From NCBI GenBank assembly GCA_040512455.1, contig JBEVFC010000288.1:1-47396 (forward strand): a DNA stretch of 47,396 nt. Direction: 5' to 3'. Shown piece after piece: positions 12,429 to 33,812 of the stretch (position 1 is the stretch's first letter; each line of letters begins with the position of its first letter). Origin of the DNA: Nocardioides sp. Its GTDB lineage: Bacteria > Actinomycetota > Actinomycetes > Propionibacteriales > Nocardioidaceae. A program made the position numbers and the translations under genes. The notes under the pieces were generated by a model that did not search any database, was not told the origin of the DNA, and was given only the letters and a program-made list of their open reading frames with translations.

Positions 12429-12502
12429 GTCGGCGTCCCCTCTCGCTGACGGTGCTGCACCATCGCGACCGTCACGCTAGGGCCGCACGCGCGGCGGCCG
12501 CG

Positions 12503-12519
12503 TCACCTGTCCCGGGTGA
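12503..12519 (-). promoter_or_regulatory. TCACC-N7-GGTGA operator upstream of cls
   Basis: TCACC-TGTCCCG-GGTGA. Minus-strand TAGCGT at 12479-12474, 23-nt gap. Confidence 0.75.
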
Positions 12520-12569
12520 CCTCGGCCGGTCACCTCGGCCGGGCACCTCAGTCGGGCACCTCAGTCGGG
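12518..12569. repeat. 4 x 13-bp degenerate tandem repeat
   Basis: GACCTCGGCCGGT / CACCTCGGCCGGG / CACCTCAGTCGGG / CACCTCAGTCGGG. Confidence 0.8.
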
Positions 12570-12761
12570 GATCGTGACGATCTCGATGACGCTGATGCCG
12601 AGGGAGTTGAGCAGGCTGAGCACGCCCTGCAGCTCCTCCTGGTCGGCGAGGTCACCGGTGAGCGTCGTCTGGGCCCGGTGGTGATGGGTCGTGAGCTGGG
12701 GGAACGCGCCCGAGAGCTCGTCCGACAGCTCGGCGTCGACTCGGATCATCAGCCTGGTCAT
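12561..12761 (-). CDS. small conserved hypothetical protein (66 aa)
   Basis: MTRLMIRV...TTLTGDLADQEELQGVLSLLNSLGISVIEI resembles a common small actinobacterial protein. SD GGAG. Directly downstream of the GAP gene. Confidence 0.75.
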   Translation of the reverse strand: MTRLMIRVDAELSDELSGAFPQLTTHHHRAQTTLTGDLADQEELQGVLSLLNSLGISVIEIVTIPD

Positions 12762-12777
12762 GGGTGTGCTCCCTCCG

Positions 12778-13449
12778 TCACAGTCCACCCAGCCCCTTGC
12801 CCAGGATCGCCACACCGATCACGAGCAGGAGCACGGACATGACAGTTGCGTTGTTGGCAGTGAGCCACCGACGCATGTCGTCGAGTGGCTCCTGCATCCG
12901 GTCGTGGGCGAGCAGGAAAGCGAGCACCGGTACGACGACGCTGCTGGACGCGATCACCACGAACACGACCAGCACCACCACCGTGTCGGTCGTCGAGAGG
13001 TCGGTGCCACCGATGATGGCGCCGCCCGCCAGACACAGCGTCAGGTTCTTCGGGTTGGCGGCCGAGAGCAGCGCCCCCAGGCCGAGGGCCTTGCCGGCGG
13101 TCATCCTGTCGATGGCGGCCATCCAGGTAGGCAACGACGGCTCGTCGCCGGGCTTCGGCCGGGACCGCCACTGCAGCACGCCCAGCACGATGGCGGCCGC
13201 GCCCAGCAGCAGCTGGAGGACCGAGGCGACCGTCGACGGACCGGAGGTGTCCGAGGTGCTGCTGGGCTGCACGAGCATCGTCACCACCGTGACCACCACG
13301 GTGACGCCGGCGACCCAGCCCACCATGAACGCCACGCTGGCTGCCCGGGCCTGGGGGGCCAGCAGCATGAGGATGACCGCGATCACCGGAACCGGGGAGA
13401 TCGCCACGCCGAGCGCCACCGGGAGGATGTCTCCGATGACGGATCCCAT
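12778..13449 (-). CDS. GAP family (Sap/Gap lipid-addressing) membrane protein
   Basis: ALGVAISPVPVIAVILML, NPKNL, WLTANN. About 6 TM helices. SD GGGAG before ATG 13449. Confidence 0.88.
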   Translation of the reverse strand: MGSVIGDILPVALGVAISPVPVIAVILMLLAPQARAASVAFMVGWVAGVTVVVTVVTMLVQPSSTSDTSGPSTVASVLQLLLGAAAIVLGVLQWRSRPKPGDEPSLPTWMAAIDRMTAGKALGLGALLSAANPKNLTLCLAGGAIIGGTDLSTTDTVVVLVVFVVIASSSVVVPVLAFLLAHDRMQEPLDDMRRWLTANNATVMSVLLLVIGVAILGKGLGGL

Positions 13450-13531
13450 GAGAACTCCCGGCACGACGTGATGGGTCGGCCGACCGGCCGGACCTCGCGT
13501 CGAGGTTAGGTTCGCCTACCGGTGCGGTGCC

Positions 13532-13548
13532 TCACCGGTTTCGGGCGA
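13532..13548 (-). promoter_or_regulatory. operator upstream of the GAP gene
   Basis: TCACC-GGTTTCG-GGCGA. Minus-strand TAACCT at 13508-13503, 23-nt gap. Confidence 0.7.
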
Positions 13549-13604
13549 AGCACGGGGAGGGTCTCCGGCGGCTCGGCACGACGTACGCGGACGGCGTCCG
13601 GACG

Positions 13605-13621
13605 TCACCTGTATCGGGGGA
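13605..13621 (+). promoter_or_regulatory. operator upstream of SulP-1
   Basis: TCACC-TGTATCG-GGGGA. TACGGT at 13645, 23-nt gap. Confidence 0.7.
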
Positions 13622-13679
13622 GCCCGGGCACGGCCGCGCGGTCCTACGGTCGCGCCGATCCGCAGGACGGAGGAGTGCC

Positions 13680-15440
13680 GTGTCGGAGACCGATCCGCCC
13701 GCCGACGGGAAGGGCACCGCCGCTCCCGCGCACCCGCGAACCCGCCTCCTCGCCCCGTCCTTCGTCGGGTTCCAACGCTCATGGATCAGGCCCGACGTGA
13801 TCGCCGGGCTGACCGTCTGGGCGGTGCTGGTCCCGGAGTCACTGGCCTACGCCACCATCGCGGGGGTCCCGCCGGTGGTCGGCCTGTACGCCGCGATGCC
13901 GGCGCTGGTGCTCTACGCGCTGGTCGGCTCCTCCCGCCACCTCGTGGTGTCACCGATGTCGGCGACGGCCGCGCTGTCCCTGGGCGTGGTCTCGACGGTC
14001 ACCGACGACCCGGGGGAGTTCGTCGTCCTCACCGCCGCCCTCGCGCTGGCCACGGGTCTCGCGGCGCTGCTCGCCGGCGTGCTGCGCCTCGGGTTCCTGG
14101 CCGCGTTCATCTCCGAACCCGTGCTCAAGGGGTTCATCATCGGCCTGGCCCTGACGATCATGGTCGGCCAGCTTCCGTCCCTGATCGGCGTCGACAAGGG
14201 CAGTGGCAACTTCTTCGAGAAGCTCTGGGACCTGCTGAAGAACCTCGGTGACGCGGAGGCGCTGGCCACCGTGGTCGGCCTCAGCAGTCTCGCCGTGCTG
14301 CTCGGGCTGCGGCGCTGGGCGCCCCGGGTCCCGGCGTCCCTCGTGGTGGCCGCGCTCGGCATCGCCGCCGTGGCGGTGTTCGGGCTGGACGACGACGGGC
14401 TGGACATCGTCGGCACCATCGACTCCGGCCTCCCGTCGCTCGGGCTCCCCGACGTCGGCAGGTCCGACTTCGTCGAGCTGTTCGGCGCGGCGATCGGGGT
14501 GATGCTGGTCGGCTTCGCCGAAGGGCTCGGCGCCGCCAAGACCTACGCGGCTCGCGAGGGCTACGACATCGACGCCAACCGGGAGCTGCTCGGGCTGGGC
14601 GCGGCCAACGTGGGGGCGGGCCTGACCAGCGGCATGGTCGTCAACGGAAGCCTGTCGAAGACCGCGGTCAACGGCAGCGCCGGCGCCAGGTCGCAGCTCT
14701 CGGGGACGACCGCCGCCGTCCTGACGCTGGTCACGCTGCTGCTGCTCACCGGCCTGTTCGAGCAGCTGCCGGAGGCGACGCTCGCCGCCATCGTCATCGC
14801 GGCCGTCCTCGAGCTCGTGGACGTCGAGTCGCTGCGCCGGCTGTGGCGGGTCCGTGGGGGCGTGCTCGGCCGGGCCAACCGGGTCACCAACCGGGTCGAC
14901 TTCCTGGCCGCGGCGGCCGCGCTGCTCGGGGTGCTGCTGCTCGACACGCTGCCCGGCCTGGTGATCGGCATCGGGGTGTCCCTGGTGCTCCTGATCGCCC
15001 ACGCCTCCCGGCCCCACGTGGCGGTGCTCGTGCCGGTCACGCACAATGACGGCGGGACCGAGGGTCGCGTGTGGGTGGACGCGTCCCGCAACCCGGGCCT
15101 GCCCGGGGCGCCCGGAGCACTGGTGGTCCGGGTCGAGGCCCCGCTGCTGTTCGCCAACGCCGACTACGTCCGCGAGCGGGTCCGTGGTCTCGTCGCGGCC
15201 ACCCCCGGCGTACGGATCGTGGTGCTGGACGGCGAGGCGACGCCCTCGATCGACGTCACCGCCTCGGCGATGCTGGTCCAGCTGCGCACAGACCTGCGGC
15301 GCTCGGGCGTGGAGCTGGTGCTGGCGGAGGACGTCGGCCAGGTCCGGGACGTGCTGGCCCAGGCCGAGCCCGACGGCGTCCCGCCGGTCTACGTCACCAT
15401 CGAGGACGCGCTGCGCTCCACCCCGCCACCGCCGCCCTGA
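13680..15440 (+). CDS. SulP family anion transporter with STAS domain
   Basis: DVIAGLTV...VPESLAYA...GLYA, GSSRHL, NRELLGLG, GSLSKT. STAS motif LLFANA...IDVTA. SD GGAGGAG before GTG 13680. Confidence 0.93.
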   Translation: MSETDPPADGKGTAAPAHPRTRLLAPSFVGFQRSWIRPDVIAGLTVWAVLVPESLAYATIAGVPPVVGLYAAMPALVLYALVGSSRHLVVSPMSATAALSLGVVSTVTDDPGEFVVLTAALALATGLAALLAGVLRLGFLAAFISEPVLKGFIIGLALTIMVGQLPSLIGVDKGSGNFFEKLWDLLKNLGDAEALATVVGLSSLAVLLGLRRWAPRVPASLVVAALGIAAVAVFGLDDDGLDIVGTIDSGLPSLGLPDVGRSDFVELFGAAIGVMLVGFAEGLGAAKTYAAREGYDIDANRELLGLGAANVGAGLTSGMVVNGSLSKTAVNGSAGARSQLSGTTAAVLTLVTLLLLTGLFEQLPEATLAAIVIAAVLELVDVESLRRLWRVRGGVLGRANRVTNRVDFLAAAAALLGVLLLDTLPGLVIGIGVSLVLLIAHASRPHVAVLVPVTHNDGGTEGRVWVDASRNPGLPGAPGALVVRVEAPLLFANADYVRERVRGLVAATPGVRIVVLDGEATPSIDVTASAMLVQLRTDLRRSGVELVLAEDVGQVRDVLAQAEPDGVPPVYVTIEDALRSTPPPPP

Positions 15441-15446
15441 CGCGGT

Positions 15447-15463
15447 TCACCTGCAACGGGGGA
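15447..15463 (+). promoter_or_regulatory. operator upstream of the DUF1269 gene
   Basis: TCACC-TGCAACG-GGGGA. CAGCGT at 15486, 22-nt gap. Confidence 0.7.
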
Positions 15464-15522
15464 GGATTCCCCCGCGCCCTGGCCGCAGCGTGGGTCATGA
15501 GACCGACAGGCAGGAGTCGCCG

Positions 15523-16008
15523 ATGGCCACGCTGACCGTGTGGAAGTACGACACGACGTACGGCGCCGACCAGGCGTCCGAGAGGCTCCAGGAGCTCTCG
15601 CGCGCGGGGCTGGTCCAGGTCCACGACGCCGCCACGGTGGTCTGGGAGGAGGGGAAGAAGAAACCGAAGACGCACCAGCTGGCCAGCCCCACCGCCGCCG
15701 GCGCCCTCGGTGGCGGATTCTGGGGGCTGCTGTTCGGCCTGATCTTCTTCGTCCCGCTGCTCGGCGCCGCGATCGGGGCCGCCACGGGCGCGCTGGCCGG
15801 TTCGCTCACCGACGTGGGCATCGACGACGAGTTCATCAACAAGGTTCGTGACCAGGTCACCCCGGGCACCTCGGCGCTGTTCGTGATGACCTCCGACGCC
15901 GTGGTCGACAAGATCAAGGAGGCCTTTGCCGGTCTGGACAAGGGCGAGCTGATCTTCACCAACCTGGACAACGAGCAGGAGGCGGCGCTGCGCGAGGTCT
16001 TCACGTAG
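15523..16008 (+). CDS. DUF1269 domain membrane protein
   Basis: MATLTVWKY, glycine zipper GALGGGFWGLLFG...GAAIGAATGALAG, DVGIDDEFI, PGTSALFV. SD AGGAG. Confidence 0.9.
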   Translation: MATLTVWKYDTTYGADQASERLQELSRAGLVQVHDAATVVWEEGKKKPKTHQLASPTAAGALGGGFWGLLFGLIFFVPLLGAAIGAATGALAGSLTDVGIDDEFINKVRDQVTPGTSALFVMTSDAVVDKIKEAFAGLDKGELIFTNLDNEQEAALREVFT

Positions 16009-16132
16009 ACCGGTGACCACGCTCGCGGCCGGGGTGGCCGCTTGCCCCTTCGTGGTCCGGCCCGTCAGACTCGAGGACCAGACACGCCGCCGTGCGCACT
16101 CGGGAGATGCGCACGACGCAGGGAGGGCCATC

Positions 16133-18766
16133 GTGGGTGCCAGGTGGGACGAGCTGGGGGAGGGTGCGCGTCCGCTCCAGCCCCCGAACGGCACCTTCCG
16201 TTCCCTGGTTCCGCGGCCTCCGCCGGTCCTGGTGACCCGGCCCGCAGTCGACGCGTTCCTGTCCGGCGTACGGCGCTCCCCGGTCAGCATGGTCGTGGCA
16301 CCGGCCGGGTCCGGCAAGACCGCGGCCGCCGCGGCCTGGGTGCGTGCGGAGCTGCGCCGCGGCGGCAGGGTGGCCTGGGTTCCGGCGCTCGAGGCGCGGC
16401 GACACGCGTCGGCACTGTCCGCCGCGCTGTCCTCCGGCGTCGCTGCCGACGACCGGTCGCCCGACCGGCCGGTGATCGTCATCGACGACGCGCACGAGCT
16501 CGCGGAGGGCGCCCGGGCACTGGTCCGGCGCCACCTGGAGGCACGTCCGGACTCGGCGCACCTGCTGATCCTCAGTCGTGAGGAGCTCGACCTGGTCCCT
16601 CCCGAGCTGGTCGGCCCCGGGCCGTCGATGGTCCTCACCCCCGCGGAGGCCGCCGCCCTGCTGAAGCTCCACCACCCGGCCGCCACCCCCGCCGAGGTCG
16701 CCCGGGTCGTCGACGGGACCGAGGGCCGGGCCGCCGCGGTCATCCTCGCGGGGTGGCTGCTGAGCACCGGCCTGCGCGAGGCCGACGACGTGTTCCGGGA
16801 CGACGGGCGCCCCGTCGTCGTCCGCCTCATGGAGCGGGCCTTCCGCTCGTGCCCGGAGGAGCTCCGGGAGGTGCTGCTGAGCATCTGCCACGAGAGCGAG
16901 GTGGACGACGAGGAGGCGACCGCGCTCTCGGGTGACCCCCGGGCGGGACGGATGCTCGCCCGGGCGGCCGACTACGGGCTGCTCGTGACCGCGTACGCCG
17001 ACGAGTCCGGCGACGAGACCGACGCGCAGGCGGAGGAGACCACCCGGTGGCGGGTGCACCCGTTGCTCCGCGAGTTCCTGGTGGACCGGACGGAGGGGTG
17101 GGCGCCGTTCCGCGGCGACGCTGTGGTGGCCGACGCGCGCGCCGCCCGCCACTACGCGGCCGCCGGTGACCCGGCCCGGGCCGCCCGCTATGCCACCCGG
17201 GCCGGGGATCCCGAGCTGCTGGGCCAGATGCTCGTCGAGGTCGGCGTCGACCTCATCATGCTGGGCGAGTCCGCGCTGGTCGACACGGCGCTGGCCAGGA
17301 TGGACCTGACCGGGCGGGGCAGCACCGGACCGGCGGCCGACCCCGAGCTGGCCGCTTTGCGGGGCCTCCTCCTGCGTGGCCGGCATCGCGACGCGGACGC
17401 GAAGGCGGCGGCGGACCTGGCCTGGTCTCTGGGCGCCGGTACGACAGACGTGAGCCGCTCGCTGCGGGCCGACCTGGCCGTCCTGGGCGCCTGGCAGGCG
17501 CGGTACGGCTGGCGGGATCCGGTCGAGGCGCTGGCGGCCGCCCGCACCGTGCTGCACTGCCGCCACGGAGGGGACGGCCCCGCCCTGCACGACCTCACCG
17601 ACCTCCCCGCGATGCGGGCCGGTTCGCTGCTGGCGGAGCTCGCGGCGCTGGAGGTGTGGACCGGTGACCTCGCGTCCGCGGCGGACCACATCCACGCGGC
17701 GACGACCCTGGCGCACGTCCTCGACGCGCCGCGGTTCACCGCGGCGGTCCTGTCGCTGCGCGCCACGGTGGAGATGATCTCGGGCGCCTACCAGACCGCA
17801 CTGGCCACGGCGGAGGAGTGCCTGGAGGTGTGCGACCTCTGGGGCCTCCGCGACACCGCCCGGAGCCGGGCCCTTCTCGCCCGGGGCTGGGCGCGGTTCC
17901 ACGCGTTCGAGCTCGATGCCGCCGAGCGGGACCTGGCGCTGGCGCGCCTCTACGGCGAGGACATGGCGGACCCCTTCCTGCTCACCTACACCCGGCTCCT
18001 CGAGGCGTGCGCCCTCACGGCGCGGGGGGACGCGACCGCGGCGGTCCGGGTGCTCGACGCGCAGGGGGTGGTCACCGCCCACCCGCCAGGCTTCGTCGCC
18101 CGGCACACCGCGATCATCCGGCTGCTCGGCGACGCCCACCTGGGTGACCACGGCAGCATCCGCGCCGAGGCCGTCCGGCTCACCGACAGCGGCTGGCCTC
18201 TGGACGCGGCGCTGGCGAGCGCGATCGCCGACGGGCTCGACGACCGCCCCGACGCCGGGCTGGCCGCTCTCCGGCGGGTCGAGGACGACCTGCCCGCCGA
18301 GGGCACGCTGGGCGCCGCCGCGTCGGTCACCCGGGTAGCGCTGCTCCAGCTCCTCGGGACTCCGGAGGCCCTCGAGGCCGCCCGGGCCGGCGTACCGGAC
18401 GTGCTCGGCCGGACCGGCCGGCACCGCCTGCTGTGGATCCTGTCCATGGGCTGGTTGCTGTCCCCGGACTTCGGTGCGCTGCTGGAGCCGTCGGCCCGCA
18501 CCGGTCCCCACCAGGAGTTCGCCCGCGCCGCGCTGGTCGCCTTCGACCGCGGACCGGTGGGGGAGGCGGCCGAGCACGACCTCACCGACCGTGAGCTCGA
18601 CGTGCTCCGTCAGGTCGCCCTGGGCGGCAGCAACGCCGACATCGCCGGGGCACTGTTCATCACCGAGAACACGGTGAAGACCCACCTGGCCGCGGTCTTC
18701 CGCAAGCTCGGGGTCGACCGCCGGTCCGCGGCCGCCCGGGTTGCGCGGGAGCGGCACCTGATCTGA
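16133..18766 (+). CDS. MalT-like large ATP-binding LuxR (LAL) transcriptional regulator
   Basis: Walker A APAGSGKT, Walker B VIVIDDAH, RVHPLLREF, C-terminal HTH LTDRELDVL...ITENTVKTH. SD GGGAGG before GTG 16133. Confidence 0.88.
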   Translation: MGARWDELGEGARPLQPPNGTFRSLVPRPPPVLVTRPAVDAFLSGVRRSPVSMVVAPAGSGKTAAAAAWVRAELRRGGRVAWVPALEARRHASALSAALSSGVAADDRSPDRPVIVIDDAHELAEGARALVRRHLEARPDSAHLLILSREELDLVPPELVGPGPSMVLTPAEAAALLKLHHPAATPAEVARVVDGTEGRAAAVILAGWLLSTGLREADDVFRDDGRPVVVRLMERAFRSCPEELREVLLSICHESEVDDEEATALSGDPRAGRMLARAADYGLLVTAYADESGDETDAQAEETTRWRVHPLLREFLVDRTEGWAPFRGDAVVADARAARHYAAAGDPARAARYATRAGDPELLGQMLVEVGVDLIMLGESALVDTALARMDLTGRGSTGPAADPELAALRGLLLRGRHRDADAKAAADLAWSLGAGTTDVSRSLRADLAVLGAWQARYGWRDPVEALAAARTVLHCRHGGDGPALHDLTDLPAMRAGSLLAELAALEVWTGDLASAADHIHAATTLAHVLDAPRFTAAVLSLRATVEMISGAYQTALATAEECLEVCDLWGLRDTARSRALLARGWARFHAFELDAAERDLALARLYGEDMADPFLLTYTRLLEACALTARGDATAAVRVLDAQGVVTAHPPGFVARHTAIIRLLGDAHLGDHGSIRAEAVRLTDSGWPLDAALASAIADGLDDRPDAGLAALRRVEDDLPAEGTLGAAASVTRVALLQLLGTPEALEAARAGVPDVLGRTGRHRLLWILSMGWLLSPDFGALLEPSARTGPHQEFARAALVAFDRGPVGEAAEHDLTDRELDVLRQVALGGSNADIAGALFITENTVKTHLAAVFRKLGVDRRSAAARVARERHLI

Positions 18767-18784
18767 GCCCGGCGCTCCGGGGTT

Positions 18785-18801
18785 TGGTCCGTTCCGGGTG
18801 A
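18785..18801 (+). promoter_or_regulatory. operator upstream of the DUF7144 gene
   Basis: TGGTC-CGTTCCG-GGTGA (left half degenerate). TAGCGT at 18824, 22-nt gap. Confidence 0.6.
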
Positions 18802-18869
18802 GCCCTGCAGCCCGGTGCCCTCCTAGCGTCGGCGGCCGGAGCACAACCGTGCGTAGTCAGGGAGGACCC

Positions 18870-19280
18870 ATGAGCAATCCGCGCAGTTCCTACGGTGAGT
18901 CGACGTCGCTGGCGTACGGCGTGACCGTCTTCGCTGGCGTCATGCTCGCCACGCTGGCGTGCCTCCAGTTCCTCCAGGGCCTCGCGGCCGTCCTCAAGGA
19001 CGACGTCTTCGTCCGGGGCATCAACTACACGTACAAGTTCGACGTCACCACCTGGGGCTGGATCCACATCGTTCTCGGGGTGATCGGCGTGGCGGTCGGC
19101 CTCGGCATCCTGGCCGGCCAGACGTGGGCGACCGTCGGCGGACTGGCGATCGCCGTGGTGTCGTTGCTCAGCCAGTTCATGTTCATGCCCTACTACCCGT
19201 TCTGGTCGATGCTCGTGATCTTCATGGACATCGTGGTGATCTGGGCGCTGGCCACCCGTCTGAGCGACTCGGGCGCGTAA
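18870..19280 (+). CDS. DUF7144-like 4-TM membrane protein
   Basis: GVTVFAGVML...FLQGLAA...DVTTWGWIH...PYYPFWS. SD GGAGG. Confidence 0.82.
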   Translation: MSNPRSSYGESTSLAYGVTVFAGVMLATLACLQFLQGLAAVLKDDVFVRGINYTYKFDVTTWGWIHIVLGVIGVAVGLGILAGQTWATVGGLAIAVVSLLSQFMFMPYYPFWSMLVIFMDIVVIWALATRLSDSGA

Positions 19281-19344
19281 GGGTCATGCCCACCGCCACC
19301 TGCACAGGCGGTCCTCCGTAGCCCGGCCGGACTCGCCCGGTCCC

Positions 19345-19361
19345 TCACTCGCAGAGGGTGA
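19345..19361 (+). promoter_or_regulatory. operator upstream of the second LAL regulator
   Basis: (CC)TCACT-CGCAGAG-GGTGA(GG). TAGCCT at 19384, 22-nt gap. Confidence 0.72.
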
Positions 19362-19577
19362 GGCGGCCCCCCTCGCCGCTCCCTAGCCTTCGGAGTGCAG
19401 CAGGGCATGCCCCGACTGCACTGCACGACCAAGGGCAGACCGATGTGGGAGCGTCGATCTGGGAGGCGAATGTCGTACAGCGGCTGCATGCACCCCGGGC
19501 GAGGCGAGCACCCCGGGTGCCGTCCATCTCGGGACAGGTGTGTGGGCCTGCCCCGCGTTTTCGGACCGGAGGACAGC

Positions 19578-22178
19578 GTGACCGCCACCTCGCAGCCGCA
19601 CCCGACCCAGACCAACCATCCCGACGACCTCCCGCGGCTGCCGCGGGTCTACGTGCCTCGGCCCCGCCTCTGGGAGCGGCTGGACCGGGGCACCGAGAGC
19701 TCGCTCACCATGCTCGTCGGCCCGATCGGTGCCGGGAAGTCGCTCGGCGCGAGCGGCTGGCTCCGCGACCGACGCCTCGACGGCGTGGTCTGGGTCCAGG
19801 CGCGCAGCGACCTGGGCGCCGAGACGCTGCTCGACCTGATCGCGTCGACGCACGAGGAGGACCCGACCCTCCCGCCCCGGCTCCTGGTGGTGGACGACGC
19901 GCACCTGCTGCCCCCGGCGTCCGTCCACGTGCTCGACAGGCTGGTGAACGACGACCCCGACCGGATGCGCGTGCTGCTGCTGTCGCGCTGGGACCTCGGC
20001 ATCACCCGGCTGGCGGCGGAGCTCCGCGGCCACCTGACGATCCTGCGCGGCGAGCTGCTTCGTCTCGACGAGAGGGAGTCGGCCGCCCTGGTCACCGAGC
20101 ACGCCCGGTCGACCGACCCGCGGGTCACCTCCATCGTCAGCCAGCGCACGCAGGGATGGTGCGGCGCGGTCGTGCTCACTGCGCGGGCGATCGGTGCGGC
20201 TCCGGACCCGGTGGCCGCGGCCGAGCGGTTGGCCGCCGCCCACACGGTCGTCGCCGACGCGGTGGCCTCCGAGGTGTTCTCGTCCCTCCACTCGCGCGAG
20301 CGACACCTCCTGCTGTGTGTCGCCGGCGACCCCGTCGTCTCGGTGGACACCGCGGTGCACCTCACCCGGGACCCGCGCTGCAGCGCCATCCTCGCGGACC
20401 TCGACACCACCGGCCTGCTGGTGAGCCGCCTGGGCGGGGACCCCTCCACCGTGGACAGGTCCAGCCGCTATCGCATCCACCCGCTGCTCGGGGAGGTCGT
20501 CCGCCGCAGGCTGGCCGCAGGGGGCGTGGACGTCGAACAGGCCCGGGCCACCGTGCTCCGGGCCGTCCGGGCCGACCTCGCCGGCGGCGAGATCGTCGCA
20601 TCCTTCGACCGGCTGCTCGCCGTGCAGCACATCGAGGCCGCAGCGGACCTGCTGCATGTGCACGGCGAGGCGCTGCTGGACGACGGTGGCGGTGCCTCGC
20701 TCCAGTGGTTCGTACGGCATCACCCCGAGGCCCTCCAGGACCGTCCCACGGCGTGGTTCACGGTCGCCCTCGAACGTTGGCAGGACGATGACGTGCACGG
20801 CGCCCTGGGGTGGCTCGACCAGCTGCTGCGGGAGGACGCCCAGGACGATGGCGCTCTCGTAGGTGAGGCTGCCTGCGCCCGGCTGATGCGCGCGCGGCTC
20901 GGCTTCGACTCGATGACCCAGGCCGTGACGCACGCCCGGGCCCTGGTCGCCGACAGCGCCTTCACGGAGCGGGCGGCGCACCTGCTGCCCCGGCTCCTCT
21001 GCGAGCTCGGCACCGACCAGGTCTGGCTCGGTGACCTCGACGCCGCCGAGGAGAGCCTTGGCGAGGCGATCCGGCTCGGGAAGGCCGCGGGACTCACCAA
21101 CCTGCTGGCCACGGCCCTCACCCAGCTGGCGTTCACGCTCTACCTGCAGGGACACGAGCGGGAGGTCGCGCGCACCGCGACCCGGGCCCTGGCGGCCGCC
21201 GCTCCGCAGCACCCCGCGGGTGCCATGTCGGCTGCCGCCGCCGATCTCGTCCTGCAGCTCGGCACCCTGGCGGACCTGCCGTGGCCCGACGGTGTGCAGG
21301 AGATCGAGGTGCGCCCGGGCAGGTTGCACACCGCCGACGTCAGCGCCCGGTTCTGGGCGCGGATGCGCGACGCGCGTCTGGCTCTGGCCGCCGGCTCCGT
21401 GATGCGTGCGGAGCGGATCCTGCGGTCCCCGGCCGACGTGCCGCCGCTGCCTCGTCACCTCCGGATCGTGGTGCTCGTCGAGCTCGCCTTCCTCGCGGCG
21501 CTCGCCTCCGACGAACCCGGGCTCGAGACACTGGCCGGGCAGCTCGGAGACCTGGAGTCGGCGGGGGAGGCCGAGCTGGTCAGGGGGCTGCGCGCGGACC
21601 TGCGGGGCAACCGCCGCGCCGCGGTCGAGCACTTCGTCGGCGCGACCACCCACGCGATGACGCCGCAGCCCGCGGCACTGCCACTGGCTCTCGCCTGCGC
21701 GGCGCAGCTGTACGACGCGCTGGGCGACCGGGAGGAGGCACTGCGGGCGCTGCAGGCGGCGGTGACGGCCACCGAGGTCCGGGGCAACGCGGTGCCGTTC
21801 CTGGGCTGGACCCGCCAGGGCGCCCCCCTGCACCCGCTCCTGGCCAGGCTCGCCGAGCACTCCTCCGATCCCTGGGCCCGGGACCTCACCCAGGCGACCG
21901 CCGGTCATCCGGGGGTGGCGGCCGTGCTGGCACCGTGGACCCCGTCGACCCGGGAGCGGGCCTCGGCCGAGGAACCCGTCATGCGTCCCGACCTCAGCCC
22001 CCGCGAGCGCGACGTGCTGCACGAGCTGGCGCGCGGCTCGACGTACGCCGACATCGCGGCGAGCCTGTTCGTGTCGGAGAACACCGTGAAGACACACGTG
22101 TCCAGCCTCTACGGGAAGCTCGCGGTCAACCGGCGCAGCGAGGCACTGGCGGTGGCGCGGAACTTCGACCTGCTCTGA
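19578..22178 (+). CDS. MalT-like large ATP-binding LuxR (LAL) transcriptional regulator
   Basis: VPRPRLWERL, Walker A GPIGAGKS, LLVVDDAH, RIHPLLGE, HTH LSPRERDVL...VSENTVKTH. SD GGAGGA before GTG 19578; alternative in-frame ATG at 19470. Confidence 0.9.
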   Translation: MTATSQPHPTQTNHPDDLPRLPRVYVPRPRLWERLDRGTESSLTMLVGPIGAGKSLGASGWLRDRRLDGVVWVQARSDLGAETLLDLIASTHEEDPTLPPRLLVVDDAHLLPPASVHVLDRLVNDDPDRMRVLLLSRWDLGITRLAAELRGHLTILRGELLRLDERESAALVTEHARSTDPRVTSIVSQRTQGWCGAVVLTARAIGAAPDPVAAAERLAAAHTVVADAVASEVFSSLHSRERHLLLCVAGDPVVSVDTAVHLTRDPRCSAILADLDTTGLLVSRLGGDPSTVDRSSRYRIHPLLGEVVRRRLAAGGVDVEQARATVLRAVRADLAGGEIVASFDRLLAVQHIEAAADLLHVHGEALLDDGGGASLQWFVRHHPEALQDRPTAWFTVALERWQDDDVHGALGWLDQLLREDAQDDGALVGEAACARLMRARLGFDSMTQAVTHARALVADSAFTERAAHLLPRLLCELGTDQVWLGDLDAAEESLGEAIRLGKAAGLTNLLATALTQLAFTLYLQGHEREVARTATRALAAAAPQHPAGAMSAAAADLVLQLGTLADLPWPDGVQEIEVRPGRLHTADVSARFWARMRDARLALAAGSVMRAERILRSPADVPPLPRHLRIVVLVELAFLAALASDEPGLETLAGQLGDLESAGEAELVRGLRADLRGNRRAAVEHFVGATTHAMTPQPAALPLALACAAQLYDALGDREEALRALQAAVTATEVRGNAVPFLGWTRQGAPLHPLLARLAEHSSDPWARDLTQATAGHPGVAAVLAPWTPSTRERASAEEPVMRPDLSPRERDVLHELARGSTYADIAASLFVSENTVKTHVSSLYGKLAVNRRSEALAVARNFDLL

Positions 22179-22207: not shown

Positions 22208-22224
22208 TCACCCTGTTCGGGGGA
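22208..22224 (+). promoter_or_regulatory. operator upstream of SulP-2
   Basis: TCACC-CTGTTCG-GGGGA. No clear -10 hexamer at the usual spacing. Confidence 0.6.
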
Positions 22225-22284: not shown

Positions 22285-23952
22285 ATGGCTGAGTCCGGCA
22301 CCCACACGTGGCTGCCCTCGCTCCACGGCTACCGGCGGACCTGGCTGCGCGGCGACGTCCTCGCCGGCCTGGCCGCGGGCTGTGTGGTGATCCCGCAGGC
22401 GATGGCCTACGCGACGATCGCGGACCTGCCCGTCGAGGTCGGGCTCTACACGTGCATGCTGCCGATGTTGGCGTACGCGTTGCTCGGCGGTGCCCGGGCC
22501 CTCAGCGTCTCGACGACGTCGACCATTGCGGTGCTGGTCGCCACGACGCTGGCCGATCTGAGTGGCCGCGACGCCGACGAGCTGCTCGGGGCCGCGTTCA
22601 CGCTCACGTTCCTCGTCGGCCTGTGCCTGCTGGCGATGCGGCTGTTCCGCCTCGGCTCTCTCGTGGAGAACATCAGCCCGGCCACCCTGACCGGGATCCG
22701 CCTGGGTGTCGGGTTGACCGTGGCGGCCAGCCAGCTGCCGAACCTGCTCGGCGTCGAGGCGTACACCGGTGACGGTGGCTTCTTCGCCGAGGTCGTCGAC
22801 GCGCTGCGACAGCTGCCGGACGCCAGCGGGGTGACGACCGCGGTGTCGGCGACGGCGATCCTCGTGCTGCTCCTGGTGCGCCGCTTCCTGCCGACGCTGC
22901 CGGGGCCGCTGCTCGTCGTCGCCGGTGGGATCGCGCTGGTCGCGTTCACCGGCGTGGAGGAGCGCGGGCTGGCGCTGATCGACCGGGTGCCGACCGGGCT
23001 CCCGTCGGTCTCCCTGCCGGTGCCGTCGGACCTGGTCGACCTGCTGCCCGGTGCGGTCGCGATCGCGGTGATGTCATTCCTCGAGACGGTCCTGGTCGCC
23101 AGGACGAACCGACAGCGCTCGGAGCCGCCGATCGACACCGACCAGGAGCTGTTGGCGACCGGCGTCGCGTCGCTGGCCGGCGGCCTCACGCAGACGCTGC
23201 CGCCGGCTGGCGGCTTCTCCCAGAGCGCGGTCAACCTGCGCTCCGGTGCGCACACCCAGGTCGCCGGCATCGTGACCGCGGCGCTCGCGGTGCTGGTCGC
23301 GCTGCTGCTGGCGCCGCTGCTCGACGACCTGCCCCGCGCGGTGCTGGCGGCGATGGTGCTGGTGGCGATCATCGGGCTGCTGGACCCGAGCGACCTGCGC
23401 CGCTTCGCCCGCATCGACCGGGCGGAGCTCTGGGTGGCGGTCGTCGTCGCCGCCATCAGCCTGGCGGGCGGCATGCTGCTCGGCGTGGCGGTCGGAGTCG
23501 GCCTCACCCTGGTCCTGGTGCTGCGCGCCGTCAACCAACCCCGGGTCCGGCCGCTCTACGCCCGCCCGGGTGGCGGCTGGACCGCCGTACCCCAGGAGCC
23601 GGCGGAGCCGGTCCCGTCGCAGCTCCTGCTGCTGCACCTGGACGGGGGGCTCTACACCGGCAACGCCCAGGCCACTCACGACGCCATCGTGGCCACGGCC
23701 CTGGCCGCCGAGCCGCGACCCACCACGGTCGTGCTGGAGGGGACCGCGGTGCGGATGGTCTCGGTGACCATGCTCGACACGTTCCGGGCCCTGACCGAGG
23801 AGCTGGAGACCGAGGGCGTCCGCCTGGTGATCGCCGAGCTTCCGCCGGCGACGCTCGAGATGCTGCGCCGGTCCGACTGGTTCGTGGGGTTCGAGGAGAG
23901 CGGCGCTGTGTACCCGACCGTGGACGACGCCGTGGCCGCCGCCCGGACCTGA
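22285..23952 (+). CDS. SulP family anion transporter with STAS domain
   Basis: DVLAGLAAG...IPQAMAYA...GLYT, DQELLATG, GGFSQS, C-terminal STAS-like domain. SD GGAGG. Confidence 0.92.
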   Translation: MAESGTHTWLPSLHGYRRTWLRGDVLAGLAAGCVVIPQAMAYATIADLPVEVGLYTCMLPMLAYALLGGARALSVSTTSTIAVLVATTLADLSGRDADELLGAAFTLTFLVGLCLLAMRLFRLGSLVENISPATLTGIRLGVGLTVAASQLPNLLGVEAYTGDGGFFAEVVDALRQLPDASGVTTAVSATAILVLLLVRRFLPTLPGPLLVVAGGIALVAFTGVEERGLALIDRVPTGLPSVSLPVPSDLVDLLPGAVAIAVMSFLETVLVARTNRQRSEPPIDTDQELLATGVASLAGGLTQTLPPAGGFSQSAVNLRSGAHTQVAGIVTAALAVLVALLLAPLLDDLPRAVLAAMVLVAIIGLLDPSDLRRFARIDRAELWVAVVVAAISLAGGMLLGVAVGVGLTLVLVLRAVNQPRVRPLYARPGGGWTAVPQEPAEPVPSQLLLLHLDGGLYTGNAQATHDAIVATALAAEPRPTTVVLEGTAVRMVSVTMLDTFRALTEELETEGVRLVIAELPPATLEMLRRSDWFVGFEESGAVYPTVDDAVAAART

Positions 23953-24082
23953 CCCGCCAGCTTGTCCATGGGGGAAAGGCGTTCGCCCGCCATGGGTGGC
24001 TCTCCGAACGTCGGGCAGGACTCCCAGAACTGGGGTCGATCGGGGATGGGCATCGGCGTTTCTGCGTCGTAACATCTCGCCC

Positions 24083-26640: not shown

Positions 26641-26641
26641 G

Positions 26642-27238
26642 TCAGTTCGCCTTCACTGAGAGGGACTGGGTGAGGCGCTCCAGGGCGTACTCGGCGACGC
26701 GGACCAGCGCCTGCTTCGCGGACTCACGGTCGCGGGCGTCGACCTGGATGACCGGGACGTGGGCCGGGAGGGCGAGGGCGGTCGCGACGTCCTCGAGGGA
26801 GTAGCGCTCCGCGCCGTCGAACTGGTTGACGGCCACGATGAAGGGCAGGCCCTTGGACTCGAAGTAGTCCAGGGGCGAGAACGAGTCGTCGAGCCGCGCG
26901 GTGTCGACCAGCACGATGGCCCCGATCGCGCCCAGACAGAGGTCGTCCCACATGAACCAGAAGCGTCGCTGCCCGGGAGTCCCGAACAGGTACAGCACCA
27001 GGTCCTCGGCCAGGGTCAGCCGCCCGAAGTCCATGGCCACCGTGGTGGTCGCCTTGGTGGGGACGGCCCCGAGGTCGTCCACGCCCTCGGACTCGTTGGT
27101 CACCAGGGCCTCGGTCCGCAGCGGCACGATCTCGGACACCGAGCCCACCAGCGTGGTCTTGCCGACGCCGAAGCCTCCGGCGACGACGATCTTGGTAGAC
27201 GCCGCCCTGCGCGAGGCACTAGTAGGTACGTAGTCCAC
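26642..27238 (-). CDS. cvnD: conservon small GTPase (ATP/GTP-binding, MglA-like)
   Basis: GGFGVGKTT, TTTVAMDFG, LFGTPGQRRFWFMWDDL, NQFD, DAR. Confidence 0.92.
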   Translation of the reverse strand: MDYVPTSASRRAASTKIVVAGGFGVGKTTLVGSVSEIVPLRTEALVTNESEGVDDLGAVPTKATTTVAMDFGRLTLAEDLVLYLFGTPGQRRFWFMWDDLCLGAIGAIVLVDTARLDDSFSPLDYFESKGLPFIVAVNQFDGAERYSLEDVATALALPAHVPVIQVDARDRESAKQALVRVAEYALERLTQSLSVKAN

Positions 27239-27599
27239 GGAGAGTCCTTTCGATGAGCTCGATCCGCTCGTCCCTCGACGAGCTCTCGGTGATGGTGGCC
27301 TGCACCTGGACGAGACCCTGCTCGACGAGGTCGCCGAGCAGGACCCGGACGACCCCGATCGGCATGGAGACCAGGGCGGAGACCTCGGCCACGGAACGGG
27401 TGTCGCAGGTGGCCAGGATGTGCCGCGCGGCCGCACTCAGGTCGGACGTGGGGTCTCCCGGCTGCCGGAGCAGGGTGGCCTCCATGGGGAGGTCGACCGA
27501 GGACCGGGTGCGGCCGGCCGTGATGGTGTACGGGCGGATGAAGCGGGCCGACGGTGTCCCGAACAGCTCCTCCGCGCCGGCGGGGTTCTCAAGCGCCAC
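27219..27599 (-). CDS. cvnC: conservon DUF742 protein
   Basis: IRPYTITAGRT, SVAEVSA...PIGVVRVLLGDL, LIERTLRGLR. Confidence 0.92.
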   Translation of the reverse strand: MALENPAGAEELFGTPSARFIRPYTITAGRTRSSVDLPMEATLLRQPGDPTSDLSAAARHILATCDTRSVAEVSALVSMPIGVVRVLLGDLVEQGLVQVQATITESSSRDERIELIERTLRGLRTY

Positions 27600-27611
27600 T
27601 GCTGCTCACCG

Positions 27612-28046
27612 TCAGGCGCCGGTGGCGACGCGGGCCCTGGCCTGGACCGTCCGGCCGACGCGGTCGACCAGCAGTGCCATCTCGTAGCCGACCTGGCCGA
27701 TGTCCGCGGACTCCTGGGTCAGTACGGCGAGGTTCGACCCGTCGCCGACGCTCATCAGCATCAGGTAGCCGTGCTCCATCTCCACGACGGTCTGCAGCAC
27801 GGCGCCCCCGTCGAAGAGCCGGGCGGAACCGACGGCCAGGCTGGCGAGCCCGGAGGAGACGGCGGCGACCTGCTCGGCCCGTTCACCGGGGATGCTGGCG
27901 CTGGCCGCCATGAGGAGGCCGTCTGCCGAGACGAGGATGGCGTGCGCTGCGTCCGTCACCTGGTCGACGAAACGGGTGACGAGCCAGTCCAGGTTGCGCT
28001 CGTCGCCCCCGGACGGGGCGATGCGGCGGCCGTCGTAGTCGTTCAT
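27612..28046 (-). CDS. cvnB: conservon roadblock/LC7 (MglB-like) protein
   Basis: LDWLVTRF...VSADGL...[10 protein letters not shown]...QTVVEM...GYEMALLV. Confidence 0.93.
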
Positions 28047-30667
28047 GCTGGGCCTGCTTCCGTGTGCTGCGGGTGGGGGGATTGTGTTGCGGCGGAGCGA
28101 CCGCGGGAGACGCCCTGGGCGTGGGCCGCGAGCCGCTTCCGGATGGCCTCGGGGTCACGCGGTGCGACCGTCGTGGGCTTGCTGACGCCACCGGGGACGA
28201 GCAGGGTGCCGGGGCGTCGTACGGGGAGGCCGGTCGGCGTGACCTGGGGCTCGCTCGGCGTCGCGGCGACCTCGTCCGCCCGGTCCCAGCCTGCTTCGAC
28301 CTCGGAGGAGCTCCAGGGCTGCTCGCTGCCGTTGGCGCTGAGCCAGGCCGACCGCATGGCCCTGAAGATCGGGGTGTCGGACTCGTCCTCCCAGTCGGCG
28401 GGGTTTGTCGGGCCGTCGAGCGCGTCCTCCGTGGCTGCGGGCGGCGCCGCCACGGATGGCGCCTGGACCGCGCGCAGCGGGATCACCTCGGCGTGGATGT
28501 CGGGTTCGGCGGCGACGGGGGCGGCGGGTGTCCGCTGGGGCACGAGCGCCGCGGGCGACGCCGAGGCGGGCACCGGTGCGGGTGTCGGTGCAGGCGGGGC
28601 CGGCGCGACGGCCGGGGCCGGCGCGACGGCCGGGTCGGGCCGCGGCGCCGCCGGCGGCGGGAAGGAGGCGCCGGGCCGACGTCGCGGCAGCCCGAGGGCT
28701 CCGTTGATCCGGTCCTCGATGCTCCCGGCCGATTCGGCCTCCCGAGGACCCGTCGTCGACGCAGTGGTCGGCGTCGGCGCGGCCTGGACCTCCGGAACGA
28801 CCACCGATCGTCGCTCCGGGCCCGCGGCCGGCGAAGCCGTCTGCGCCATCGTCGGGAGGATGGCGATCGGCAGGAACACCGTCGCCGTCGTACCGCCCTT
28901 GTCGCTGCGACGAAGGGCCACGCCGATGCCGTGCCGCTGCGCGAGACGGCTCACCACGAACAGACCCATACGGCGGGCCGTGTCGGGCGTGACGTCGTTG
29001 CCGGAACGGAGCGTCTCGTTCATGGCCTCGAGCGCGGACGCGGGGATGCCGAGTCCCTCGTCGGTCACCTCGATCTGGATGCCGTGGCGACGGGTGATGG
29101 AGGTGAGCACCACGTAGGTCGTCGGGGACGAGTACGACAGCGCGTTGTCGACCAGCTCGGTGAGAAGGTGCACGACGTCGGCGGCCGCGGCGTCGTTGAT
29201 CCGCTCGCTGCTGGTCACGCCGACCCGCACCCGCTGGTACTCCTGGACTCCGGCCGTTGCGGCCTGCAGGGCGTCGGCCACGGTGAGCTCGCCCTGTCCG
29301 GCGGCGGGGGCAGGCGCATCGGCGAGGATCAGCAGGCTGTCGGCGGTACGGCGCATCCGTGAGGCGAGGTGATCGAGGCGGAAGAGGCTCTCGAGGCGGC
29401 GTGGGTCCTCCTCGTCCTTCTCGAGCGCCTCGATGAGGCTCAGCTGCTGGTTGACCAGCGCGGTGTTGCGCCGCGACAGGGTGACGAACATGTCGCCGAC
29501 CTGGGCGCGCAGGCTGGCCTCGCCCGTCGCCAGCCGCACCGCCTGCTGGTGCATGTCGTCCACGGCCCGGGCCAGCTGGCCCATCTCCTCCTCGGTGGTG
29601 ACGTCGATCGGCTTGATCTCGCCGGGTGCCTCGCCCGCCCGGATCCGGGCGACCGCCTGGGGGAGCTCCTCGTGCGCCACGGCCAGGGCGCCTTCGCGGA
29701 CCTTGCGGATGGGGGTGAGCAGCAGACGGGAGACGAGGAAGGCCAGGAGCAGGGCGGCCAGCAGGGCACCGAGAGTGAGGGCAGCGTTGGCGAAGGCCCG
29801 GGCCCGGGCGTCGCCGGCCGAGGTGGACAGCTGCTCGTCGATGCCGTCCATCAGCGTCGTGACGAGGCTGTCGTACTGCTTGTACGCTCCGGCACCGCCC
29901 AGGTCGCTGCCCCCGGTGCGGATCTCGCGGGAGCGCTGGGCGTTCTCGGTGCGCAAGGCCGCGACGGCGGGCTCGGAGGAGCCGAGGGCACCGGCGAGTC
30001 GGTCGATGGCCGCACCCTCGACGCCGAGCTCGGCGAAGAGCTCCTGCGACCCGGTGTCGCCGGTGCGGTCGGTGGCGGCGAGCGCCTGCTGCATGGCCAG
30101 CGAGAAGCGACCTCCCAGGGTCTGGGCGAGCAGCTCGAGACGGGGCTCGGGGTCGATCTGGGCGTTGACGATGGTGCCGATGAGCCGGGTCGTGGCGGAC
30201 TGGAGCTGACGCAGCTGGGCCACCCAGGTGCCGGGGCTCAGCGTCTCGGTCCCCGCCTCCCGCAGGGAGCGGCTCAGATCCAGGACCACGTCGACCTGGT
30301 TGCTCTGCTCGGGGGTGAGACCGGCGGCGGTGCGTGCCTCGGTGAGCTTGTCCGCGGCCGTCCCGAGGCCTGTGACGGCCTTCGCGAGCGCGGCCTTGTC
30401 GGCCGTGGTCGCCGACTGTGCGGCGACCATCGCGCGCTCGGCGATCGTCAGGTACGTGACCGCGGGACGCAGCACCGTGACCTGCTCGCTGGTCGCCGAC
30501 GAGTTCGAGGCCTCGGTCAGGTCGCTGCGCACGCGCAGGCCGCCGAGCGTCGCCGCCAGCAGCAGGGGAATGGTGAGGGCGAGGGCGAGCTTGCGGCGTA
30601 GCGGCCACCCGGAGACGTGGAACAGTGAGCGATGTCCGGGGCGGGAGGTGGGGGGTGTCTCACGCAT
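28043..30667 (-). CDS. cvnA: conservon membrane sensor (HAMP + HATPase, histidine-kinase-like)
   Basis: 2 TM helices flanking an extracytoplasmic domain, [34 protein letters not shown], Pro/Ala-rich tail with LPxRRPG motifs and RDPEAIR. Confidence 0.92.
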
Positions 30668-30851
30668 GGTGCTCCCGTGAACTCGAGACAGACGCTGCCG
30701 AGTCGGCGTCCGGTCGATTGGAAAGGGGTGATCGGCAATCTAGGGATCGAGCGCCCCGCCCACGTACGTTTTCCGGACAAACGGCGGAACGACGGGCGAT
30801 TTCGTCGCTGCTGGTCTAGATGCCTGATCGGCCCGAACGCGTCGGTCACGT

Positions 30852-30868
30852 TCACCCTCCGCAGGTGA
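30852..30868 (+). promoter_or_regulatory. operator upstream of the DUF2254-antiporter operon
   Basis: (T)TCACC-CTCCGCA-GGTGA(A). TAGCCT at 30891, 22-nt gap. Confidence 0.75.
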
Positions 30869-30913
30869 AGAACGGGCCGCGGGCCTCTTCTAGCCTCCGT
30901 CAGGAACGCGACC

Positions 30914-33807: not shown

Positions 33808-33812
33808 CTCGG

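What the first reader, a model, noticed from the sequence alone, without database searches (positions are those of the whole stretch)
12474..30896. Candidate regulon: a 17-bp TCACC-N7-GG(T/G)GA operator at fixed spacing before eight transcription units
Seen in sequence: eight intergenic copies. 12503 TCACCtgtcccgGGTGA (cls), 13532 TCACCggtttcgGGCGA (GAP + small protein), 13605 TCACCtgtatcgGGGGA (SulP-1), 15447 TCACCtgcaacgGGGGA (DUF1269), 18785 TGGTCcgttccgGGTGA (DUF7144), 19345 TCACTcgcagagGGTGA (LAL-2), 22208 TCACCctgttcgGGGGA (SulP-2), 30852 TCACCctccgcaGGTGA (DUF2254-antiporter). In seven copies a -10-like hexamer (TAGCGT, TAACCT, TACGGT, CAGCGT, TAGCGT, TAGCCT, TAGCCT) lies 22-23 nt away on the strand of the downstream gene. 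Established: a site abutting the -35 region is the geometry of class II activation. Inference: the embedded MalT-like LuxR proteins activate a membrane-lipid and ion/pH-homeostasis regulon made largely of DUF proteins. I know of no description of this regulon but cannot check the literature.
Basis: partly seen in the sequence, partly recalled or inferred. Interest (0 to 1): 0.88.

Follow-up and report, generated by a model that had tools for sequence, protein, structure and literature searches.

The report
MalT-type activator boxes at eight promoters
A 17-base palindrome sits in front of eight gene units here, at a fixed distance from a promoter-like element in seven of them, and is likely the docking site of the two neighbouring MalT-like activators; the same kind of box and regulator were shown by gene deletion in Actinoplanes in 2020, so this is a new example of a known system.

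Summary
All eight sites are at the stated coordinates, and seven have a -10-like hexamer 22-23 nt downstream. Genome-wide, 9 of 280 near-perfect sites have TANNNT at that gap; each other gap has 0-1. The exact composite occurs 141 times in 61 of 250 genus genomes, against 2 for the reversed control. It tracks MalT-like genes: 55 of 109 genomes with one carry it, 6 of 141 without.

The system is not undescribed. Droste et al. 2020 (PMC7567727) reported TCATCC-5nt-GGATGA, ending 34.4 nt before 17 start sites, in an Actinoplanes region with two MalT-like genes and DUF1269 and AI-2E targets; deleting malT lowered 42 of 51 genes. Here the box reads TCACCC-N5-GGGTGA, and both forms mix in another Actinoplanes and in this genome. 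This scan met the same system before on other DNA; one of those notes led me to the paper.

Added here: further targets (cls, SulP, ClC, cydAB), the spread of the box, and a conserved 66-residue ferredoxin-fold gene beside the regulator. Direct binding, the inducing signal and the 'pH-homeostasis' role are unshown.

The parts
12503..12519 (-). operator before cls
   Evidence: the same composite before cls in 7 loci of other genomes
12474..12479 (-). -10-like TAGCGT of cls, gap 23
10941..12428 (-). cardiolipin synthase (cls)
   Evidence: TIGR04265 311.5 bits, cut-off 290
12561..12761 (-). 66-aa conserved protein, predicted ferredoxin-like (RAM/ACT-like) fold, downstream of GAP; site-preceded in 10 loci of relatives
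   Evidence: 285 homologues; model pLDDT 83; best Z 8.0, many folds tied
12778..13449 (-). GAP/SfLAP membrane protein
   Evidence: PF11139; ATG read
13532..13548 (-). operator before GAP and the small gene; -10 TAACCT at 13503-13508
13605..13621 (+). operator before SulP-1; -10 TACGGT at 13645-13650
13680..15440 (+). SulP-1 anion transporter with STAS domain (start approximate)
   Evidence: PF00916, PF01740
15447..15463 (+). operator before DUF1269 (and possibly LAL-1); -10 variant CAGCGT at 15486-15491
   Evidence: CANNNT also peaks at gap 22/23 in relatives
15523..16008 (+). DUF1269 protein
   Evidence: PF06897
16133..18766 (+). LAL-1, MalT-like STAND-LuxR regulator (start uncertain, 16013-16232); Walker A, DDAH Walker B, helix ENTVKTH
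18785..18801 (+). asymmetric operator before DUF7144; -10 TAGCGT at 18824-18829
18870..19280 (+). DUF7144 membrane protein
   Evidence: PF23636
19345..19361 (+). operator before LAL-2 (predicted positive autoregulation); -10 TAGCCT at 19384-19389
   Evidence: MalT-like genes are the commonest downstream family in relatives
19578..22178 (+). LAL-2, MalT-like STAND-LuxR regulator, the more widespread paralogue (start approximate)
22208..22224 (+). operator before SulP-2, without a -10 at 22-23 nt
22285..23952 (+). SulP-2 anion transporter
   Evidence: PF00916
30852..30868 (+). operator before DUF2254 and the antiporter; -10 TAGCCT at 30891-30896
30914..32341 (+). DUF2254 membrane protein (start approximate)
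   Evidence: PF10011
32348..33532 (+). cation/H+ antiporter
   Evidence: PF00999

Best explanation
The 17-bp palindrome ends 22-23 nt before a -10-like hexamer and is likely bound by the MalT-like regulators encoded among the sites, which would activate these promoters from a position abutting the -35 region. Shown by sequence and computation: the sites, the fixed gap, the lack of any -35 consensus in the spacer, conservation before the same gene families in relatives, and co-occurrence with MalT-like genes. Inferred from Actinoplanes MalT and from AlkS: activation rather than repression, two HTH domains on the two half-sites, and positive autoregulation through the site before LAL-2. Inferred from E. 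coli MalT (recalled): a ligand sensed by the TPR region and ATP-dependent oligomerisation. LAL-2 is likely the main activator and LAL-1 auxiliary. The targets are mostly membrane proteins, ion and anion transporters, lipid enzymes and sulfatases, so an envelope and ion-balance adjustment to late growth is my preferred physiological reading (about 0.45). The signal is unknown.
For: Composite enrichment. In 26 loci picked by the protein alone, 19 of 113 oriented matrix sites have TANNNT at gap 22/23 and none at gaps 10-21 or 24-45; CANNNT is 26 there against 12 over the 34 other gaps. The hexamer behaves like the primary -10: in this genome 326 of 384 TANNNT-to-ATG starts lie 6-7 nt apart, and after the training sites ATG peaks at +6 (10 of 27). 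That puts the box end 34-36 nt upstream, matching the 34.4 +/- 1.0 nt measured in Actinoplanes. Spacer information is at most 0.15 bits over the -35 zone. Co-occurrence: 55 of 109 genus genomes with a MalT-like gene carry the exact composite, against 6 of 141 without, and all 38 genomes with two or more sites have one. 14 of 20 loci picked by motif hold an NT[VIL]KTH LuxR gene. In a pattern-only scan, 11 of 123 loci have the site 6-108 nt after the stop of an NT[VI]K[TS] LuxR gene: 6 Chloroflexota, 2 Bacillota, 3 Actinomycetota. The LAL-2 model matches STAND proteins first (6mfv; the maltose-system complex 8bob). Deleting Actinoplanes malT lowered 42 of 51 genes and overexpression raised 39.
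Against: No binding assay, start-site map or mutant exists for this organism, and the Actinoplanes main text names no EMSA, footprint or ChIP. The profile A1 was built partly from 15 of the motif-positive genomes (without them: 40 of 94 against 6 of 141), and kin are not independent. 54 of 109 genomes with a MalT-like gene lack the exact composite; 10 of 20 protein-picked loci had no TANNNT-type site, one of them only 3.8 kb long. At phylum level the link is weak: 7 of 51 against 4 of 169, with 6 control matches. The NT[VI]KT helix is not unique: 4 of 30 LuxR domains printed from this genome have it, two of them outside the LALs. The window's LALs are only about 24-30% identical to the Actinoplanes pair examined, over local alignments, and the one Actinoplanes row in a quick tree falls in another clade. 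Acid as signal: the Actinoplanes region rose at controlled pH 6.7.
Confidence: 0.85

Rival explanations
1. A NarL/FixJ-type response regulator (a BldM relative, or the one at window 23996-24700) reads the box, and the LAL genes are only targets.
For: The BldM box TCACcCgnncGgGTGA has the same half-site, and the asymmetric site before DUF7144 resembles the BldM-WhiI box TGnnCCGnnCGGGTGA. Two non-LAL LuxR domains in this genome share the NTVKT helix.
Against: The BldM box is 16 bp, and the 6-nt spacer shows no composite here. Close relatives of the window's response regulator occur in 13 of 250 genomes, only 2 of them motif-positive (weaker paralogues not counted). The box follows LuxR genes with the same helix in Chloroflexota and Bacillota. 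In Actinoplanes the MalT-like gene is required. I did not search for a BldM orthologue in this genome.
Confidence: 0.06
2. The composite is the promoter of an alternative sigma factor, with GGTGA as its -35 and CCTAGCGT as its -10.
For: The promoter-proximal half is the better conserved one, and CC precedes the hexamer in 66 of 98 sites against 89 of 326 ordinary leaderless promoters.
Against: The element is a full palindrome, and one site serves a -10 on each side at 5 divergent promoters of relatives and at C48 and C341 of this genome. The hexamer is the genome's general TANNNT. A 22-23 nt spacer is too long for one sigma-70-type factor (own knowledge). No sigma gene is among the families shared by four or more of the 30 large loci that were annotated. 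The proximal-half bias is partly made by my search pattern.
Confidence: 0.03
3. The LALs bind the box as repressors that block the -35 region.
For: The box abuts the -35 zone; another LAL, SCO6993, is reported as a repressor.
Against: The spacer has no -35 consensus, so these promoters would be weak without an activator. The Actinoplanes deletion lowers and overexpression raises the targets.
Confidence: 0.04
4. The palindromes are RNA hairpins or terminators after stop codons, or chance matches in 72% GC DNA.
For: Four window sites lie 6-64 nt after an upstream stop codon, and the palindrome alone is not enriched in the genome.
Against: No covariation between paired positions in 103 sites (p 0.12-1.0); 54 of 102 sites with an upstream gene call are in divergent gaps; 3 of 103 have a T-rich tail; folding energies are -1.9 to -6.4 kcal/mol. 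The fixed distance to a -10 is not explained.
Confidence: 0.02

Closest known systems
[quoted passage not shown] SE50/110 (Droste et al. 2020, PMC7567727)
   Same: 17-bp palindrome of two hexamers and 5 nt; 3' end about 34-36 nt before the start; two MalT-like genes with a membrane-protein gene between them; shared target families. DUF1269 is in the window; AI-2E and a class II glutamine amidotransferase-like gene are on other contigs of this genome; SHOCT, DUF308 and BrkB are in relatives. A syntenic region of Actinoplanes sp. CA-252034 holds 10 perfect boxes, 5 of them with a TCACCC-type half, and DUF7144 between its two LALs.
   Different: The dominant half-site is TCACCC, not TCATCC (131 against 1 of 196 half-sites in the training set, which my pattern biased; 57 of 70 perfect boxes in genus loci are TCACCC on both sides). 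The regulators are distant (about 25% identity). cls, SulP, GAP, DUF2254, antiporter, ClC, cydAB and sulfatase are not in its gene table by name; its arginine deiminase operon is not in the window. Targets here are spread over several contigs. Maltose dependence is untested here.
AlkS of Pseudomonas putida GPo1 (LuxR/MalT family; review PMC8784404)
   Same: MalT-family activator, inverted-repeat operator next to the -35 region, positive feedback on its own gene.
   Different: 20-bp repeat, alkane inducers, alkane-oxidation targets.
E. coli MalT
   Same: STAND-TPR-LuxR architecture; half-site GGGTGA/GGGGGA resembles the MalT box GGA[TG]GA; box at the -35 region.
   Different: Far below the MalT family cut-off (96 and 93.5 bits against 537); no maltose genes among the window's targets; a single palindrome instead of several repeated boxes (repeat layout as quoted).
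BldM and BldM-WhiI of Streptomyces venezuelae (PMC4125116)
   Same: Identical half-site TCACCCG and a LuxR-type HTH.
   Different: 16-bp site with one base less between the halves; an orphan response regulator; developmental targets.

Membership tests
MRLGR-type MalT regulon (Droste et al. 2020) | 17-bp palindrome TCA(T/C)CC-N5-GG(A/G)TGA | tested here: met
   Consensus TCACCCG-N3-CGGGTGA; mixed TCATCC/GGGTGA boxes in this genome and in Actinoplanes sp. CA-252034. The published consensus has T/A where this one has C/G.
MRLGR-type MalT regulon (Droste et al. 2020) | 3' end of the box about 34 nt upstream of the transcription start | tested here: met
   By proxy only: gap 22-23 plus hexamer plus 6-7 nt to leaderless starts; no start sites were mapped.
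MRLGR-type MalT regulon (Droste et al. 2020) | MalT-like regulator gene(s) inside the regulated region | tested here: met
   Two, flanking DUF7144 as in the Actinoplanes sp. CA-252034 region; full-length profile match to its LAL, E 7e-38, 25% identity.
MRLGR-type MalT regulon (Droste et al. 2020) | Shared target families | tested here: met
   DUF1269 in the window; AI-2E and GATase-II-like on other contigs.
MRLGR-type MalT regulon (Droste et al. 2020) | Regulators are orthologues of ACSP50_3915/3917 | tested here: inconclusive
   SE50/110 sequences were not fetched. The syntenic stand-in from a congener falls outside the window's clades in a FastTree with long-branch warnings.
MRLGR-type MalT regulon (Droste et al. 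2020) | Targets fall on regulator deletion and rise on maltose | not testable with these tools
   Needs mutants and expression data.
LAL / MalT-like STAND regulators | About 900 aa, N-terminal Walker A/B NTPase, TPR region, C-terminal LuxR HTH | tested here: met
E. coli MalT equivalog (NF003420) | Score above the curated cut-off of 537 | tested here: not met
   96 and 93.5 bits.
BldM regulon | 16-bp box (6 nt between TCACC and GGTGA) | tested here: not met
   The composite is specific to 7 nt.
BldM regulon | BldM orthologue present in the genome | not tested
   No search was run for it.

The most novel reading that the evidence does not exclude
These STAND regulators run a widespread envelope and ion-balance programme that senses something other than maltose, and the 66-residue ferredoxin-fold protein, encoded behind the same box and often next to the regulator gene, is a dedicated feedback partner that binds the STAND, as MalY does for MalT. 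LAL-1 and LAL-2 may also form mixed oligomers that read the asymmetric box before DUF7144.
Probability: 0.12. Interest if true: 0.6.

Novelty: new member of a known kind. Interest (0 to 1): 0.22.

Why it matters
It confirms a real, precisely placed operator and extends a regulon shown by experiment in one Actinoplanes strain to at least a quarter of the genomes sampled from a large soil genus, with traces in Thermoleophilia, Chloroflexota and Bacillota. The box-plus-minus-10 rule assigns many unannotated membrane genes (DUF1269, DUF7144, DUF6325, DUF2254, GAP) to one regulator and predicts their start sites. What the regulon is for, and what the STAND senses, stay open; the wider target list (cls, ClC, SulP, antiporters, cydAB, sulfatases) points away from maltose use. 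The box type, geometry and regulator class are published, so a specialist would not be surprised.

Tried and rejected
No RNA holder was listed for window 12400-20400; this says nothing on expression.

A complex prediction of LAL-2 with the small protein could not be queued because the queue was full; there is no result either way.

No plasmid match for LAL-2 at E 1e-15. The Atlas gave only unnamed clusters for the small protein; its fold search is a tie among ferredoxin-like folds with best Z 8.0, so no family is assigned.

Literature searches that missed the Actinoplanes paper: (six spellings of the TCACC form, gave 0 papers). Passages of PMC13683440 (RazD), PMC9628970 (SCO6993), PMC3282765 (SCO0877/SCO7173) and PMC12803058 (TetR DAP-seq) describe other sites or none. 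PMC8914203 reports the 16-bp BldM-like motif.

A second promoter class one helical turn further out (gap 33-34, which would suit SulP-2) has only weak support: CANNNT 4 of 113 and 10 of 159 oriented sites, TANNNT none. In Actinoplanes, cytochrome bd genes were not lowered by malT deletion, so cydAB is not a general target. The first tree run did not finish and was replaced by FastTree. The first genome scan timed out and was rewritten.

Rows dropped: 12 of 107 sites were left out of the matrix training set (5 window sites, 3 from another family, 4 judged chance) and 4 of 107 out of the covariation test.
Full report
Observation. All eight 17-mers stand at the coordinates given, and seven have the stated hexamer 22 or 23 nt downstream on the strand of the next gene; SulP-2 has none. 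The palindrome by itself is not over-represented in this 72% GC genome. The composite is: 9 of 280 near-perfect sites have TANNNT at gap 22/23, against 0-1 at each other gap from 12 to 33. A matrix trained on 95 sites from other genomes finds 9 composite hits in the genome, 6 in this window, against 0-2 for seven control gap pairs. The genome is a 63% complete assembly; names of close homologues point to Nocardioides.

Is the hexamer a real -10? In this genome 326 of 384 TANNNT-to-ATG starts are 6-7 nt apart, the pattern of leaderless genes. After the training sites ATG peaks at +6 (10 of 27), and three further sites of this genome have an ATG 7 nt after the hexamer. In 26 loci chosen by the regulator protein only, 19 of 113 oriented sites have TANNNT at gap 22/23 and none at any other gap from 10 to 45; CANNNT peaks there too (26 against 12 over 34 other gaps), which supports the CAGCGT before DUF1269. 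The spacer has no -35 consensus. The box therefore ends about 34-36 nt before the inferred start. No start site was mapped.

Spread. The exact composite occurs 141 times in 61 of 250 genus genomes, against 2 for the reversed control. The genes behind 107 sites fall into recurring families: MalT-like regulators (15 rows), the small protein (10), cls (8), DUF7144 (7), DUF6325 (7), SulP (5), sulfatase (4), AI-2E, GAP, SHOCT and ClC; 15 rows had no gene call. A stricter pattern over the species collection returned 123 loci from 5 of 64 parts, about 1,900 stretches in all by the tool's estimate. Most are Actinomycetota, some Chloroflexota, and a share is chance: my rough uniform estimate is about 550. 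39 of the 123 have one of the same families downstream; five more have ClC channels. A phylum-wide draw found it in only 11 of 220 genomes, so it is patchy.

Which protein reads it. LAL-1 and LAL-2 have Walker A and B motifs, a helical repeat region and a LuxR HTH with the helix ENTVKTH. The LAL-2 model (pLDDT 88) matches STAND proteins first, among them the maltose-system complex 8bob. In the same 250 genomes, 55 of 109 with a MalT-like gene carry the composite, against 6 of 141 without, all six as single matches; all 38 genomes with two or more sites have a MalT-like gene. Fifteen positive genomes helped build the profile; without them the count is 40 of 94. Kin are not independent. 14 of 20 loci picked by motif hold such a gene. 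11 of the 123 collection loci have the site 6-108 nt after the stop of a LuxR gene with the same helix, eight of them outside Actinomycetota; 43 of the 123 had only short flanks. Against: 54 of the 109 genomes lack the exact composite, 10 of 20 protein-picked loci show no TANNNT-type site, and the phylum tally is 7 of 51 against 4 of 169 with 6 control matches (one count each rests on unpublished G334 and G402). The helix also occurs in two other LuxR domains of this genome. The window's response regulator does not track the motif (2 of 13). LAL-2 relatives outnumber LAL-1 relatives 33 to 8 in my loci, a set partly fetched around LAL-2-type hits, and LAL-1 relatives in the genus sit beside a LAL-2 relative. 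I therefore take LAL-2 as the likely main activator.

Not an RNA element. Paired positions do not covary in 103 sites, about half of the sites are in divergent gaps, 3 have a T-rich tail, and 5 serve a hexamer on each side.

What is known. I read the abstract, parts 2-5 of 6 of the main section, and Tables S3 and S4, and ran two searches in the spreadsheet; I did not see the figures or the PDF supplement. The paper reports TCATCC-5nt-GGATGA ending 34.4 +/- 1.0 nt before 17 start sites in a 51-gene region with two MalT-like genes; deletion of ACSP50_3915 lowered 42 genes and overexpression raised 39. Its table lists DUF1269 three times, AI-2E, SHOCT, BrkB, DUF308 and a class II glutamine amidotransferase. 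The main text names no direct binding assay. I checked the link on DNA. A syntenic region of Actinoplanes sp. CA-252034 has two LALs around DUF7144, as in the window, with DUF1269, AI-2E, DUF6325 and SHOCT, and 10 perfect boxes of which 5 have a TCACCC-type half. This genome has 5 mixed boxes. The two spellings are thus one motif family. The regulators are homologous over their length (E 7e-38, 25%) but not shown to be orthologues. Other precedents, read as passages only: AlkS (PMC8784404), the MalT box (PMC9628970) and BldM, whose half-site is the same but whose box is one base shorter (PMC4125116). Seven earlier findings of this scan hold all my search words and an eighth most of them; their summaries describe the same system in other genomes. 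These are leads, not independent support.

Function. The targets in this genome include cardiolipin synthase, two SulP transporters, a cation/H+ antiporter, a ClC channel, AI-2E transporters, cydAB and a sulfatase. That fits adjustment of the envelope and ion balance, by inference only. In Actinoplanes the region is higher on maltose than on glucose and rose through a culture that was held at pH 6.7 and 30% oxygen (PMC7682106, passages), so outside acidity or low oxygen is not required there. The signal is open.

What may still be new. The 66-aa gene at 12561-12761 has 285 homologues, no Pfam or NCBIfam hit and a predicted ferredoxin-like fold. It follows the box in 10 loci and lies next to or near the LAL-2 relative in several protein-picked loci. 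A role as partner of the STAND is untested; the complex prediction could not be queued.

Verdict. A real operator with the right geometry, and likely the right regulator; a new member of a published regulon type. Interest 0.22.

Noticed in passing
G000 C173:817, C341:12433, C240:14970, C313:9829, C48:1816, C19:963, C173:3993 (loci L222-L227): Further box-plus-hexamer promoters in the same genome, before two AI-2E transporters (each divergent from a GAP gene), cydAB, a ClC channel, a bestrophin-like membrane protein, a glycosyltransferase and a sulfatase. Several have an ATG 7 nt after the hexamer.
   Followed up: yes
G000 C313:7564 (L222:7564): A mixed TCATCC/GGGTGA box before a class II glutamine amidotransferase-like gene, a family also in the Actinoplanes region; no hexamer at 22-23 nt.
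   Followed up: partly
window 12518-12569: Four imperfect 13-nt tandem units between the cls operator and the stop codon of the small gene.
   Followed up: no
window 18785-18801; L012, L058, L060, L066, L194: The strongly asymmetric box (TGGTCC-, TCGTCC- or TGGCC-type distal half) recurs in five loci of relatives, four of which carry both LAL paralogues; shared descent could explain it.
   Followed up: partly
window 23996-24700: NarL-like regulator with no Pfam receiver-domain hit, right after SulP-2.
   Followed up: partly
window 26642-30667: Sensor kinase, roadblock, DUF742 and ATP-binding genes, a conservon-like operon (name recalled), divergent from the DUF2254 operator.
   Followed up: no
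window 6689-8233: Two tandem GAF-ANTAR proteins, followed by a phospholipase D-like gene to 10005.
   Followed up: no
window 33529-43079: Aromatic degradation cluster: muconolactone isomerase, catechol dioxygenase, ring-hydroxylating dioxygenase subunits, reductase and dehydrogenase, MFS transporter.
   Followed up: no
window 45882-47039: Protein with GmrSD C-terminal-like and Excalibur domains.
   Followed up: no
L217 (Actinoplanes sp. CA-252034): The MRLGR-like region holds arginine deiminase, ornithine carbamoyltransferase and an amino-acid permease. The 2020 paper reads the equivalent operon as arginine biosynthesis; by own knowledge this set is the arginine deiminase catabolic pathway.
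   Followed up: partly
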